Positions 1,324 through 49,200 of a stretch of DNA of 64,000 bases are shown here, piece after piece. Below the pieces are notes generated by a model. It made no database searches and was not told the origin of the DNA. It saw only the letters and a program-made list of their open reading frames with translations. Where the stretch lies: positions 248,001 to 312,000 of the forward strand of contig CAXHJY010001609.1 in NCBI GenBank assembly GCA_964016885.1. Direction: 5' to 3'. The stretch comes from Eledone cirrhosa. Its lineage: Eukaryota. How positions within the stretch are numbered: the first letter of the stretch is position 1; each line of letters opens with the position of its first letter. Both the position numbers and the translations under genes were made by a program.

Positions 1324-1388
1324 TATTTCCTTATACATATTTCAGGGATACCACATTAAATTATGGTATGCCTTCATCAGACAAAATA
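1324..1388 (-). ncRNA. Type I hammerhead ribozyme motif, partly degenerate (family E)
   Basis: Minus strand reads TATTTTGT CTGATGA AGGCATACCATA-atttaa-TGTGGTATCCCT GAAA TATGTA TA AGGAAATA. It lies in a short element flanked by (TA)n on both sides. Confidence 0.6.
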
Positions 1389-1628
1389 CAATATATAACA
1401 GTTTTACAAATAGCTTTGACGTACCCTTTTAAAATACAACCATTACTTTTGGAGGCTGTCTGGATAGTGATTTGTTTATATAATAAGTCATAGTGTTAAG
1501 CACAATTAGAAAACGACGTAGAGAAAGAAAACGAAAAAAGACGGAGAGAGAGAAAAGAACAAAGACGGAGAGAGGGAAAGAAAACCTGGAGAAATATATT
1601 TATATATATATATTTATATATATATATA

Positions 1629-2300
1629 TCATCATCATCATCAACGTTTAACGTCCGTGTTCCACGGTGGCATGGGTTTGGACGGGGGTTTTCCCACTTG
1701 AGGCAAGAGTGATTGTCTTGCTCGCATAGGACTGTCTGGCAGGTTTTCTACAGTTGGATGCCCTTCCTAACACCAACCACATTTACAGTGCGGGTCTGGG
1801 AGGTTTTTACCGTGTTGCCTACACAGCCACATTACAGCGTGGACTGTGTGTTTTTCTGTCGTGACACCTACACGATCTCATTTGTTTCGGCCTGGATGGT
1901 GTGGCACCAACATAACTTTACATAGAAGGGGGCGGTGTGGATGGGGTGGGAGTGGTGGGACGGGGGTGTATTTTGTTAGAGATGCCTACTGACTGTAGTA
2001 GGTTTTACTTTGTATTTAAGTAAGGCGGGTCTTCTCTATTACTGAGTACCGCCAAAGGTCTCGGTCCAGTGACATTGTCTTGGTGAGGTGTAAGTGTGTG
2101 AGGTCGGAGTTTATCAGCTCGTCCCAGGTTTTTCTGGGTCTGCCTATTCCGTGGCTACCGTCTATCTTTATTGCCCTGCACTTTGTTATACAGCTATCGT
2201 CCTTCATGCGCATCACGTGACCATACCAACGTAGCCTTCTCTCTAGTAAACAACATCTGATCCCTCTTATTTCTAATTTTTTCCTTAGTTCGTTTATATT
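1629..2300 (-). mobile_element. RTE LINE 3' end (ORF C-terminus, 3'UTR, (GAT)n tail)
   Basis: Contains RRLRWYGHVMRM...GRPRKTW and ends in GATGAT repeats at ~1630. Part of the UTR is duplicated at 2616-2788. Confidence 0.8.
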
Positions 2301-43869: not shown

Positions 43870-45655
43870 TAATATAAGATCAAAAGATGGTTAAAGGAGT
43901 TCAATATATTTTATTATGCGCATTTCAAAAACAAACATCATCAAACAATAATATTTGTGTTTTCATCAGATAAAACAGGAGAACATGATATGAAGGCTAA
44001 AAAAACACTTGTTGATAGTGCAGTTTTAAATCAACATATGAAAAGTGGTTTTAGATTGATGTGTGATATTGGGAAAAATATTTTATTTAGAGAGGGGGGG
44101 AGAGAAAAGGATGAAAAGGGAAGGAGATGAGAGGGAGAGATGGGTGATAGAGAGAAAGAGATAGTTTTTATAACAGAGAGGAGATATATTTTATATAGAG
44201 GGGTTGAAAGCCGTTGGAAGATACTGTATAAATTAAAAATTTTTGAAAATTAACGAAGGGAGGATATGTGCGAGGAAAAAATATATTATATTTAGGGAGG
44301 GGTGGGGGTGGAAAGGATGAAAAAAAAGGGGAGGAGATGAGAGTGAAGGTGGAAAGGGAGAGATGGGTGATAGAGAGAAAGAGATAGTTTTTATAACTGA
44401 GAAAAAGATATAATGTTTTAATATAGAGAGGTTGGGAACCGTTGGAAGATAATGTATAAATTAAAGGAATTTGAAAATTAACGAAGGGAAATTATGTATG
44501 GAGATAGAGAGAAAAAAATAACGAAGGGAGATTATGTATGGAGATAGAGAGAAAAAAAATAATAATTGTGGGTGAATATTCAAAAGGAGAAATGTAGGAA
44601 TCTTAAAATTAGCAAAGAGAAAATGTTTATGTATAGGATTTGAGAAAAATAATGTGAAGTTAAAGTTTTTATATTGAATTCATATGTATTAATAATGAGT
44701 TCGTTGATGGGGAGAAAAAAATAATAATAAATTAAGGATGAAATTGAGATTAAAAAGATTTATGATAGAGAGAAAAAATAATAATGATTGCGGATGAATA
44801 CTCAAAATGTCAAAAACAAATGTTATTGTTTTACGAAGAGATATAATGAGGGTGATGAGTAAACGGGTATTATAGAGTGTATAATGCCCTTTAAAGTAAG
44901 GTAGATGGGTATATTTTAAAGAATATATGAGTATATATTAAAAAAAATATATAATAATAAATTAAGGATGAAATTGAGATTAAAAAGATTTATGATAGAG
45001 GGAAAAAAAAAAAAAAATAATAATGATTGCGGATGAATATTCAAAATGTCAAAAACAAATGTTATTGTTTTACGAGAAGATAGGATGAGGTAAATGAATA
45101 AACGAGTACTATAGAGTGTATAATGCCCTTTAAAGTAAGGTAGATGGGTATATTTTAAAGAGGTGTATGTATATGTGCCTTTGAGAAAAGATTCTAAATT
45201 GATAAAGAATTGAATATTAACTGTATACTTTGTGAAAAGTTCTATGGAATTTATGGAGGCAGATGGAAAACAAATCCGAGCGTCTATTTATTATGGATTC
45301 TAGGTTAGAGATAATGGTAAATTTTTCATTTAGGCAGAGATTACAGATTTTAGATAGAGAACTGTTCAAGTACGAGGATGCAGAAGAAATCTTTTTCCAA
45401 AAGATGTTATATTTAATGTTTTTGTCTTTTAAGGACCATATGAGTTCTGAGAGAGCAGTGTTAGTTCTTTTAAGTTTGTATTTGAAAGATGAATGATGAT
45501 TGCACTATCAACAAGTGTTTTTTTAGCCTTCATATCATGTTCTCCTGTTTTATCTGATGAAAACACAAATATTATTGTTTGATGATGTTTGTTTTTGAAA
45601 TGCGCATAATAAAATATATTGAACTCCTTTAACCATCTTTTGATCTTATATTATG
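43870..45655. mobile_element. Mirror copy of the HHR-bounded 1.8-kb unit (HHRs at 43908-43974 - and 45548-45614 +)
   Basis: Reverse complement of 32105-33890. Confidence 0.75.
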
Positions 45656-46276
45656 CATACTCCAGTCCCACAAACTGTAGAGTGCTTCTTATCCGATATC
45701 TGCATTGCTTTATTGTACTACAATAAAACTCACCTCCTACATATATATATATATATATATATATATATATCTCTATATATATATATCTATATCTATATAT
45801 ATATATCTATATATATATATATCTATATATATATATATATATCTATATATATATATATATATATATATATATCTATATATATATCTATATATATATCTAT
45901 ATATATATATATATATCTATATATATATATATCTATATATATATATATATATATCTATATATATATATATATATATATCTATATATATATATATCTATAT
46001 ATATATTTATATATCTATATATATATATATCTATATATATATATATATCTATATATATCTATATATATATATATATATATATATATATATATCTATATAT
46101 ATATATATATATCTATATATATATATATATCTATATATATATATATATATATATATATATATATATATATATATATATATATCTATATATATATCTATAT
46201 ATATATATATATATATATATATATATATATATATATATATATATATATATCTATATATATATATATATATATATAT

Positions 46277-49200
46277 AAGTTGAAAAAAATGAAAACGAAA
46301 TTTCATTTCTCACTCTTAGTATGGCACTTACTTAAATGTAAGTATGTATGTATACGTACATACATATATGTATACAGACGTACAGTAGCATGCATATATA
46401 TACATATATATATACATATATATACATATATATACATATATACATACAGGTACACATACATATATGCACGCATCAGTTTAGCGGACGTTTATTACAACGC
46501 CGCTTTGTTCGTTTGTTTGTCAACAAACCGAACAGCCTGAATTTATGCCATACGGTGTTAAGGCAACCACGTCACCTTTTTGTTCAACACTGACACAGGA
46601 ACGATGTACTAGTTTCAAGCTTGTTAGCTATCATCAGCACCGTTTACCCATCTGCCAGATAGTTGAACGTTCGAAAGTATATACTTTCCTTATGAAAATT
46701 AACGGCTGAGCAGCCTAATTTGCATATTGAGTGAGTTAAATCGGTCAGCCATACCGAAAACGATAAGTTGAAAAAAATGAAAACGAAATTTCATTTCTCA
46801 CTCTTAGTATGGCACTTACTTAAATGTAAGTATGTATGTATACGTACATACATATATGTATAAAGACGTACAGTAGCATGCATATATATACATATATATA
46901 TATATAAATATATATACATATATATACATATATGCATACAGGTACACATACATATATGCACGCATCAGTTTAGCGGACGTTTATTACAACGCCGCTTTGT
47001 TCGTTTGTTTGTCAACAAACCGAACAGCCTGAATTTATGCCATACGGTGTTAAGGCAACCACGTCACCTTTTTGTTCAACACTGACACAGGAACGATGTA
47101 CTAGTTTCAAGCTTGTTAGCTATCATCAGCACCGTTTACCCATCTGCCAGATAGTTGAACGTTCGAAAGTATATACTTTCCTTATGAAAATTAACGGCTG
47201 AGCAGCCTAATTTGCATATTGAGTGAGTTAAATCGGTCAGGCATACCGAAAACGATAAGTTGAAAAAAATGAAAACGAAATTTCATTTCTCACTCTTAGT
47301 ATGGCACTTACTTAAATGTAAGTATGTATGTATACGTACATACATATATGTATACAGACGTACAGTAGCATGCATGTATATACATATATATATATATATA
47401 TACATATATATACATATATGCATACAGGTACACATACATATATGCACGCATCAGTTTAGCGGACCTTTATTACAACGCCGCTTTGTTCGTTTGTTTGTCA
47501 ACAAACCGAACAGCCTGAATTTATGCCATACGGTGTTAAGGCAACCACGTCACCTTTTTGTTCAACACTGACACAGGAACGATGTACTAGTTTCAAGCTT
47601 GTTAGCTATCATCAGCACCGTTTACCCATCTGCCAGATAGTTGAACGTTCGAAAGTATATACTTTCCTTATGAAAATTAACGGCTGAGCAGCCTAATTTG
47701 CATATTGAGTGAGTTAAATCCGTCAGCCATACCGAAAACGATAAGTTGAAAAAAATGAAAACGAAATTTCATTTCTCACTCTTAGTATGGCACTTACTTA
47801 AATGTAAGTATGTATGTATACGTACATACATATATGTATACAGACGTACAGTAGCATGCATATATATACATATATATATATATACATATATATACATATA
47901 TATACATATATGCATACAGGTACACATACATATATGCACGCATCAGTTTAGCGGACGTTTATTACAACGCCGCTTTGTTCGTTTGTTTGTTAACAATCCG
48001 AATAGCCTGAATTTATGCCATACGGTGTTAAGGCAACCACGTCACCTTTTTGTTCAACACTGACACAGGAACGATGTACTAGTTTCAAGCTTGTTAGCTA
48101 TCATCAACACCGTTTACCCATCTGCCAGATAGTTGAACGTTCGAAAGTATATACTTTCCTTATGAAAATTAACGGCTGAGCAGCCTAATTTGCATATTGA
48201 GTGAGTTAAATCGGTCAGGCATACCGAAAACGATAAGTTGACAAAAATGAAAACGAAATTTCATTTCTCACTCTTAGTATGGCACTTACTTAAATGTAAG
48301 TATGTATGTATACGTACATACATATATGTATACAGACGTACAGTAGCATGCATATATATACATATATATATATACATATATATACATATATATACATATA
48401 TGCATACAGGTACACATACATATATGCACGCATCAGTTTAGCGGACGTTTATTACAACGCCGCTTTGTTCGTTTGTTTGTTAACAAACCGAATAGCCTGA
48501 ATTTATGCCATACGGTGTTAAGGCAACCACGTCACCTTTTTGTTCAACACTGACACAGGAACGATGTACTAGTTTCAAGCTTGTTAGCTATCATCAGCAC
48601 CGTTTACCCATCTGCCAGATAGTTGAACGTTCGAAAGTATATACTTTCCTTATGAAAATTAACGGCTGAGCAGCCTAATTTGCATATTGAGTGAGTTAAA
48701 TCGGTCAGGCATACCGAAAACGATAAGTTGAAAAAAATGAAAACGAAATTTCATTTCTCACTCTTAGTATGGCACTTACTTAAATGTAAGTCTGTATGTA
48801 TACGTACATACATATATGTATACAGACGTACAGTAGCATGCATATATATACATATATATATATATATACATATATATACATATATATACATATATATACA
48901 TATATGCATACAGGTACACATACATATATGCACGCATCAGTTTAGCGGACGTTTATTACAACGCCGCTTTGTTCGTTTGTTTGTCAACAAACCGAACAGC
49001 CTGAATTTATGCCATACGGTGTTAAGGCAACCACGTCACCTTTTTGTTCAACACTGACACAGGAACGATGTACTAGTTTCAAGCTTGTTAGCTATCATCA
49101 GCACCGTTTACCCATCTGCCAGATATTTGAACGTTCGAAAATATATACTTTCCTTTTGAAAATTAACGGCTGAGCAGCCTAATTTGCATATTGAGTGAGT

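What the first reader, a model, noticed from the sequence alone, without database searches (positions are those of the whole stretch)
1324..48300. Six unrelated hammerhead families in one locus, tied to (TA)n and palindromes
Seen: HHR cores in six sequence contexts: E 1324, F 13685, B (19635, 19817, 32145, 33785, 43908, 45548), C (35536, 37386), D (38967, 43446) and A (satellite). Three have palindromic stem III (CUAG, UGCGCA, CGAUCG). The carrying elements mostly run 3' into (TA)n. Four inverted-repeat types have HHR units pointing outward from the centre. Known: Penelope-like elements carry HHRs in pLTRs, form inverted and tandem structures, and some target microsatellites. Inference: a community of non-autonomous HHR elements uses a (TA)n-targeting GIY-YIG Penelope and generates fold-back duplications.
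Basis: partly seen in the sequence, partly recalled or inferred. Interest (0 to 1): 0.85.

Follow-up and report, generated by a model that had tools for sequence, protein, structure and literature searches.

The report
Penelope ribozyme ends, retrozyme and fold-backs
The six self-cutting-RNA motifs are in the DNA, but five are the cut-off tail ends of known Penelope-type jumping genes that insert into TA repeats, while the sixth is a non-coding tandem repeat whose insertions have the same two-ended footprint, so it is likely copied by a Penelope enzyme, which would make a long-proposed route testable.

Summary
Observation confirmed: 46 type I hammerhead cores in six contexts (shuffles give about 0.25), all running into (TA)n. 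B, C and D are truncated ends of autonomous Penelope-like elements (PLEs) with intact 821-, 1278- and 830-aa ORFs elsewhere. E and F join PLE ORF remnants. B, D, E and F are Hydra-type, C is Neptune-type. (TA)n targeting, head-to-head arms and one-sided tails are published (Craig 2021; Frangieh 2024), and such mixes are ordinary in this genome. Only A (492-bp tandem unit) is non-coding. Its insertions follow the PLE rule of one long plus one short end: 35 of 35 resolved B/C pairs; 20 of 22 resolved inverted A arms end at the short site, none at the long. That is genomic evidence for PLE mobilisation of retrozymes. Mirrored flanks are not the norm (34 of 35 B/C insertions lack them), but two occur here. 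A B pair sits where a kinesin paralog on C22 has an empty TA tract, and a C pair centres a 7-kb mirror. The scan reported the retrozyme footprint and PLE copy-backs earlier on other DNA.

The parts
1286..1584 (-). Family E: 3' end of a Hydra-type PLE with hammerhead (core at 1380), short end into (TA)n 1225-1289
   Evidence: 3' UTR contiguous with a CxCX5C/GIY-YIG ORF end about 1.5 kb upstream in other copies
13586..13780 (-). Family F: 3' end of an older Hydra-type PLE with hammerhead (core at 13752), into (TA)n; also present at the matching site of the C22 paralog
19604..19914 (.). Family B (older subfamily, 91-94% to the young unit): head-to-head pair, both ends short, at the centre of a host palindrome
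15674..24036 (.). Fold-back palindrome of kinesin-gene DNA around the B pair; inner arms 99.2% (18261-19540 against 19952-21234), outer arms 94-97%; both outer ends in (TA)n
   Evidence: empty (TA)n site and further exons in the C22 paralog near C22:18,827,200
25260..29443 (.). 4.2-kb (TA)n tract where the C-centred mirror ends
29444..31494 (+). Retrozyme A, 4.2 units, long end into (TA)n; mirror copy of the last four units of the right array
   Evidence: private variants match in order
32022..33881 (+). Family B two-armed insertion: inverted arm with 88-nt tail (32022-32258), then ORF end (32255-32539), 3' UTR and hammerhead, short end
35381..37585 (.). Family C (Neptune-type) head-to-head pair with no spacer at 36483; each arm has a GIY-YIG ORF end, 3' UTR and hammerhead; both ends short; centre of a 7-kb mirror
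38922..43784 (.). Family D (Hydra-type) two-armed insertion of 3' UTR only, short end left, about 130-nt tail right; present in only one arm of the C mirror
43879..45737 (-). Mirror copy of the B insertion (0 mismatches in 1860)
46275..64000 (-). Retrozyme A array, 492-bp unit, one hammerhead per unit, 36 units in the window, continuing to 73,207 in extended window coordinates (about 55 units); long end into (TA)n at 46275
11074..18190 (+). Kinesin motor-domain exons of the host gene copy that is cut off at the B site

Best explanation
The locus is a (TA)n-rich pile of truncated Penelope-like retroelement ends (four Hydra-type families, one Neptune-type) plus a non-coding tandem retrozyme that is likely copied in trans by a Penelope enzyme, and two of the insertions likely folded back and copied neighbouring DNA. 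Shown: intact or remnant PLE ORFs behind B-F; ends at two fixed sites 60-130 nt apart; one long and one short end per two-armed insertion, in PLEs and in A alike. Inferred mechanism: the GIY-YIG domain cuts (TA)n; both DNA ends prime reverse transcription, one at each of two start sites on an uncleaved or circular RNA; the two cDNAs stop and join head to head over 0-6 shared bases; tandem units come from repeated rounds on the template. Because (TA)n is its own reverse complement and each insertion leaves TA on both sides, the families pile up. Inferred for the two exceptions (C at 36483, B at 19759): only the short site primed, the new strand turned round at its 5' end, was copied back through the element and 4-7 kb into the flank, and rejoined at another TA tract.
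For: ORFs of 1278 aa (C), 821 aa (B) and 830 aa (D), with tandem full units of 4286, 3896 and 6054 bp; clade motifs. End rule: 18 of 18 resolved C pairs and 17 of 17 resolved B pairs among 42 loci; 7 of 7 readable D pairs. A: of 40 loci anchored at a long end, 20 have an inverted arm ending at the short site (18 scored directly, L264 and L272 by reading the rows), 2 end elsewhere, 0 end long, 2 run off the locus and 16 lack an inverted arm. Exact A junction counts are 363 long and 1,573 short, reversed controls 0. The related retrozyme G shows short plus long ends in 3 of 3 chance loci. Either arm can be the longer (15 symmetric, 11 long-end arm longer, 9 short-end arm longer), so both arms are primed separately. 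In vitro, a PLE protein cuts and extends both strands from two adjacent RNA sites that define the tail (PMC11167929, passages). Fold-backs: mirrored flanks 79 of 81 (C) and 846 of 882 (B) informative 12-mers; empty TA site in the paralog; left A units copy the last four right units.
Against: No sequence link between A and the three PLE units tested (B, C, D) beyond TA-rich segments, so the helper family is not identified. Tail hairpins are strong in A and G (z -4.3, -3.7) but weak in B, C, D and E (z -0.4 to -1.9), so no shared tail structure is shown. B and C loci were picked as opposite-strand pairs among top hits, and A loci were anchored on a TA junction by design. Pfam finds no RT family in the three full ORFs; RT rests on YxDD and DKx motifs and Atlas look-alikes. 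Copy-back during insertion cannot be told from a later fold-back by these data. The contig is an unplaced 452-kb scaffold.
Confidence: 0.75

Rival explanations
1. The two mirrored flanks arose after ordinary long-plus-short insertions: the head-to-head palindrome or the (TA)n tract extruded a cruciform, broke, was hairpin-capped and replicated into an inverted duplication, losing the long-ended side.
For: The region has several nested inverted duplications of different ages (94-99.9%), and those whose ends were read finish in TA tracts, one at the TA tract near 15.67 kb with no PLE end there. The sequence downstream of the B site in the paralog is absent from the 244 kb of contig held. Palindrome- and TA-driven inverted duplications are a published route (search listing only).
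Against: For C, TA lies on both sides and nothing needs to be lost. C arms differ by 0 of 1095 bases, like primary insertions (0-2 per kb), so the mirror is about as young as the insertion.
Confidence: 0.3
2. A is a satellite that spreads by DNA-level processes (unequal crossover, extrachromosomal circles, repair at fragile TA tracts), and its resemblance to PLE insertions is coincidental.
For: The 55-unit array shows repeated blocks of unit variants, so local DNA amplification does occur. The short end lies beside an internal TA-rich segment that could recombine with TA tracts. No RNA run was available to show a transcript.
Against: The long end is not TA-rich yet has 363 exact junctions. Head-to-head arms pair long with short 20 times and long with long never. 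G keeps both sites at homologous positions.
Confidence: 0.12
3. One reading: all six families are non-autonomous passengers of one (TA)n-targeting Penelope, and they routinely generate fold-back duplications.
For: True for A in part; D, E and F carry no coding sequence inside this window; two fold-backs are centred on PLE junctions.
Against: B, C and D have intact ORFs, and E and F join ORF remnants; 34 of 35 chromosomal insertions have unmirrored flanks.
Confidence: 0.05
4. The perfect palindromes are assembly or chimeric-read artefacts on an unplaced contig.
For: Unplaced 452-kb contig; B copies differ by 0 of 1860 and C arms by 0 of 1095.
Against: The arms differ by a 4.9-kb D insertion, by TA lengths, by three A variants, and in the kinesin mirror by 20 of 700 bases and an intron segment of about 800 bp present in one arm only. 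Symmetric pairs are common on the chromosomes.
Confidence: 0.08

Closest known systems
Hydra clade of C-terminal EN+ Penelope-like elements (Craig et al. 2021, PMC8557442; section 11, passages and supplement rows read), including Hydra-1_Obim of Octopus bimaculoides
   Same: B and D have DKT, CxCX5C, CxxC and CxH, an RW motif, a hammerhead, (TA)n insertion, partial tandems, an inverted 5'-truncated copy and a one-sided tail; E and F ORF remnants resemble them.
   Different: Units are 3.9 and 6.1 kb (paper: generally under 3 kb) because of 1.3-3.4-kb 3' UTRs; tails are about 85-130 nt (paper: 30-40); RWK is RWT or RWR; D has a 116-nt stem II; young families with many intact copies.
Neptune clade PLEs (as described in PMC8557442)
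   Same: C has a C-terminal GIY-YIG (Pfam PF01541 just over cut-off), a CX4CxxC linker, DKSG, YVDD, a hammerhead with an unpaired base before stem II, and microsatellite targets.
   Different: 1278-aa ORF with an Asn/Thr/His-rich insert; 60-nt tail; not placed on a tree, so Nematis is not formally excluded.
Metazoan non-LTR retrozymes (Cervera and de la Pena 2020, PMC7229834, passages and Discussion read; Li et al. 2026, 10.64898/2026.07.22.740005, first part, passages and Discussion read)
   Same: A and G are non-coding tandem units with one type I hammerhead each, a palindromic stem III, a U-U pair at the base of stem II in A (as in axolotl HHR_Amex2), dispersed arrays from monomers to about 55-mers, and co-occurrence with PLEs.
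   Different: Unit slightly longer (492 against 150-450 bp); arrays are two-armed, end at two fixed sites and sit in (TA)n, which the passages read do not describe; no pLTR homology to the PLEs tested; expression and circles untested.
Two-site internal initiation by the Poseidon element PAc (Frangieh et al. 2024, PMC11167929, passages read) and inverted pLTR structures of Adineta vaga (PMC3846280, passages read)
   Same: Two adjacent RT start sites define the tail; both target strands are cut and extended; head-to-head junctions; trans-action on pLTR-framed sequence.
   Different: Here the strict one-long-one-short pairing is counted in genomic copies of other clades and extends to a non-coding retrozyme; kilobase mirrored host flanks are not in the passages read.

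Membership tests
Type I hammerhead ribozyme | Core CUGANGA...GAAA...UH with three stems | tested here: met
   stems I and II covary between A and G, and the stem III palindrome varies across families
Type I hammerhead ribozyme | Rfam gathering score | tested here: not met
   A 18.5 bits against 52; C no match; B, D, E and F were not scanned alone, and no hammerhead row was among the 150 of 405 rows shown
Type I hammerhead ribozyme | Self-cleavage | not testable with these tools
   needs a transcription assay
Hydra-clade PLE (B, D) | DKT, CxCX5C linker, CxxC and CxH at the C-terminus | tested here: met
Hydra-clade PLE (B, D) | RWK motif | tested here: inconclusive
   RWT in B, RWR in D
Hydra-clade PLE (B, D) | Hammerhead and insertion into (TA)n | tested here: met
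Hydra-clade PLE (B, D) | Generally shorter than 3 kb (descriptive) | tested here: not met
   3896 and 6054 bp
Hydra-clade PLE (B, D, E, F) | Groups with Hydra in an RT tree | not tested
   reference proteins were not available as tool sequences
Hydra-clade PLE (E, F) | Own RT plus endonuclease ORF | tested here: inconclusive
   ORF ends contiguous with the 3' UTR; no intact ORF among the loci fetched
Neptune-clade PLE (C) | C-terminal GIY-YIG with CX2-5CxxC linker | tested here: met
Neptune-clade PLE (C) | Groups with Neptune in an RT tree | not tested
   no tree built
Non-LTR retrozyme (A) | Non-coding tandem units, each with a type I hammerhead | tested here: met
   only a 75-aa stop-to-stop frame per unit
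Non-LTR retrozyme (A) | Expressed as linear and circular monomer RNA | not testable with these tools
   no RNA holder listed
Non-LTR retrozyme (A) | Derived from a PLE pLTR (Li et al. 2026) | tested here: inconclusive
   no similarity to the B, C or D units beyond TA-rich parts; other PLE families not searched

The most novel reading that the evidence does not exclude
Retrozyme circles are true PLE substrates: a dimeric Penelope enzyme primes both ends of a cut (TA)n tract on two fixed sites of one small RNA and writes two-armed arrays, so A (unit positions about 431 and 492) gives a ready in vitro test of retrozyme mobilisation; and when only one end is captured, the same reaction copies back kilobases of host DNA, making PLEs a direct source of gene-truncating palindromes.
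Probability: 0.4. Interest if true: 0.65.

Novelty: new variant of a known kind. Interest (0 to 1): 0.45.

Why it matters
Which enzyme moves animal retrozymes is proposed but not shown (PMC7229834 Discussion; 10.64898/2026.07.22.740005 Discussion says the mechanism remains to be elucidated). A non-coding retrozyme that carries the two-site PLE footprint, in a genome with intact young PLE ORFs, names candidate enzymes, the target and the start sites for an assay that already exists for one PLE. The empty site in the kinesin paralog ties a kilobase fold-back to a PLE insertion point. The headline of six hammerhead families in one locus is itself ordinary for this genome.

Tried and rejected
Whole-window Rfam scan was swamped by TA-rich microRNA look-alikes. 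RF00163 in the genome gave 18 scored matches, none in the window. C3:40.36-40.42 Mb, fetched as a possible source locus, shared only repeats with the contig. A degenerate pattern meant to count B and E matched neither; it counted 4,993 copies of an E-related family. No RNA holder listed for A, which is no evidence on expression. Laying four runs of contigs on 17.9-21.6 kb was uninformative because of repeats. No solved structure matched the C protein. A shared tail hairpin between A and the PLEs was not supported. Rejected: mirrored flanks as a general product of insertion (L050 had 150 of 525 shared words and was not examined further); simple snap-back of one cDNA as the only source of arms (the short-end arm is the longer in 9 of 35). 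A search for the newt satellite-2 octamer promoter returned no confirming listing. Searches for a printed two-armed or TA-targeted retrozyme, or for kilobase PLE fold-backs, showed none in listings or passages read; most subscription papers and the bioRxiv supplements could not be seen and may bear on this.
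Full report
Observation. A type I descriptor finds 44 in the window (34 A, 6 B, 2 D, 1 E, 1 F) against a mean of 0.25 in 40 block-wise dinucleotide shuffles; the two C cores appear when stem I is relaxed. Stem III is palindromic in A, B and D, a wobble palindrome in E, and not palindromic in C and F. Rfam supports A only weakly and C not at all. Minimal PLE hammerheads with a long stem II, an unpaired base before it and dimer-type stem III are described in PMC4209133 (passages). 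Cleavage was not tested.

What the families are. The window is C1636:248,001-312,000 of a 3.0-Gb animal genome. C carries a 201-aa frame with a GIY-YIG domain (Pfam 23.2 bits, cut-off 22.6). It hits 150 of 150 scored places at 99-100% identity, many in frames of about 1,278 aa. The full protein has DKSG, YVDD and a CX4CxxC linker, which is Neptune-type. B's 95-aa frame hits 150 of 150 scored places, many in 821-aa frames. D copies repeat every 6.06 kb around an 830-aa frame. B and D have RW, DKT, YRDD, CxCX5C, CxxC and CxH, the motifs given for the Hydra clade, almost all of whose families insert into (TA)n (PMC8557442 section 11); that paper's supplement lists Hydra-1_Obim from Octopus bimaculoides with (TA)n preference. 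Pfam found no family in the three full proteins; the Atlas returned PLE-like clusters with GIY-YIG, RVT_1 and HTH_animal families. E is contiguous with a CxCX5C ORF end about 1.5 kb upstream, and F with a degenerate ORF end of the same type; no intact E or F ORF was among the loci fetched. So five families are truncated ends of coding PLEs. A alone is non-coding, a 492-bp tandem unit. A related 466-bp retrozyme, G, lies 10 kb beyond the window and shows compensatory changes in stems I and II.

(TA)n and clustering. All 30 E ends (27 by pattern, 3 by reading), 26 of 30 F ends, all 27 non-tandem D ends, and all resolved B and C ends run into TA. Another family's end lies within 1 kb of 8 of 35 B/C insertions (a ninth has its own family). 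An 80-kb stretch of C22 fetched for its kinesin gene holds B-, C-, D-, E- and F-like ends (F is the shared copy). Six families in 64 kb is therefore ordinary here.

The end rule. I fetched 42 opposite-strand B and C pairs chosen from the top hits. Both outer ends were resolved in 35 (18 C, 17 B); 7 were dropped because one or both ends were not detected in the locus or both lay on one strand. All 35 have one short end and one end extended by a tail of 60 nt (C) or 85-91 nt (B). Seven readable D pairs do the same. Arms are symmetric in 15, longer on the long-end side in 11 and on the short-end side in 9, and most join over 0-6 shared bases. This fits the in vitro result that a PLE protein cuts and extends both target strands from two adjacent RNA sites that bound the tail, using unprocessed RNA (PMC11167929, passages). 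The inverted copy and one-sided tail are published (PMC8557442; PMC3846280). The short ends lie 46-164 nt downstream of the hammerhead cleavage site in B, C and D, so the template is likely uncleaved or circular (inference).

Retrozyme A. Two exact junction patterns give 363 long-end and 1,573 short-end matches, reversed controls 0. I took 40 of the first 100 listed long-end junctions at fixed steps. Twenty have an inverted arm ending at the short site (18 scored, L264 and L272 by reading), 2 end elsewhere, none ends long, 2 run off the locus, and 16 have no inverted arm. G shows short plus long ends in 3 of 3 two-armed loci met by chance. Mobilisation of retrozymes by PLEs is proposed from co-occurrence and phylogeny (PMC7229834 Discussion; 10.64898/2026.07.22.740005 Discussion); I found no printed account of this footprint in searches. 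Against: no homology of A to B, C or D, no shared tail structure, and no RNA data. Earlier notes of this scan report the same footprint elsewhere in this genome; they are not independent support.

Fold-backs. Of the 35 chromosomal insertions, 34 have no mirrored flank. In the window, two do, and both have two short ends. First, the B pair at 19,604-19,914 centres a mirror from 15,674 to 24,036 that includes kinesin exons. The only other copy of that exon in the assembly is on C22 (92%). There the same junction is followed by an empty TA tract of about 46 bp and then further gene sequence that is absent from the 244 kb of C1636 held. Inner arms differ by 1 of 586 bases, outer arms by 20 of 700, so the inner part was homogenised or recopied. 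Second, the C pair centres a mirror of C, TA, B, TA and four A units. B copies differ by 0 of 1,860, and the four left A units repeat the variants of the last four right units in order, so the left arm is the copy. D lies only in the right arm and splits its TA tract. I favour copy-back during a one-ended insertion, a reading also offered in earlier notes on other DNA. A later cruciform break remains a live rival, especially for B, since the contig has further nested inversions ending in TA. An assembly artefact is unlikely but not excluded.

Verdict. Most of it is known PLE biology in a genome dense with such elements. What goes beyond the papers I could read is the PLE footprint on a non-coding retrozyme and the tie of a kilobase fold-back to an insertion site. 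Novelty: new variant of a known kind; interest 0.45.

Noticed in passing
L048:382-7354 (extended window 74,382-81,354): Retrozyme G, 15 units of 466 bp, homologous to A, with a GUU cleavage site and a G-C base of stem II.
   Followed up: partly
window 46,275-46,766 (A unit position 43) and G: A and G conserve an ATGCAAAT octamer inside a small hairpin upstream of the hammerhead. An snRNA-type promoter with an octamer in newt satellite 2 is recalled from memory and was not confirmed by the search listing.
   Followed up: partly
extended window -7,000 to 15,662 against 135,217 to 120,454 (contig C1636): Large inverted duplication (95-99%) of the kinesin region, ending at the TA tract near 15.67 kb; both C1636 gene copies are truncated relative to C22. 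The name KIF20/kinesin-6 is recalled, not from a call.
   Followed up: partly
extended window 96,829-108,508: A canonical long-short D insertion sits in TA inside the spacer of a 98% inverted repeat of non-element DNA; two direct copies of an A array flank the region.
   Followed up: partly
window 1,048-1,224 (+) and 2,405-2,581 (-): Two 97%-identical 3' fragments of a C-related family point inward into separate TA tracts and share C's terminal motif.
   Followed up: no
extended window 73,207: The 55-unit A array appears to start with a 9-nt inverted short-end remnant joined through a 4-nt microhomology, which would make it a minimal two-armed insertion.
   Followed up: partly
window 24,316-25,257: LINE fragment between TA tracts, copied at 98-99% to extended 116,867-117,807 (+) and 82,028-82,448 (-).
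   Followed up: no
L041:1254-5087: The C protein has a long Asn/Thr/His-rich insert before the RT, like the Asn-rich inserts reported in Adineta Penelope ORFs (PMC3846280 abstract).
   Followed up: no
C1636:208,001-227,000 (L247-L248): At least 19 kb of a 31-bp satellite upstream of the window.
   Followed up: no
C22 stretch L328 (about C22:18,859,300): A canonical-looking hammerhead with a short G-C-closed stem II and no TA nearby, of a family not in the window.
   Followed up: no
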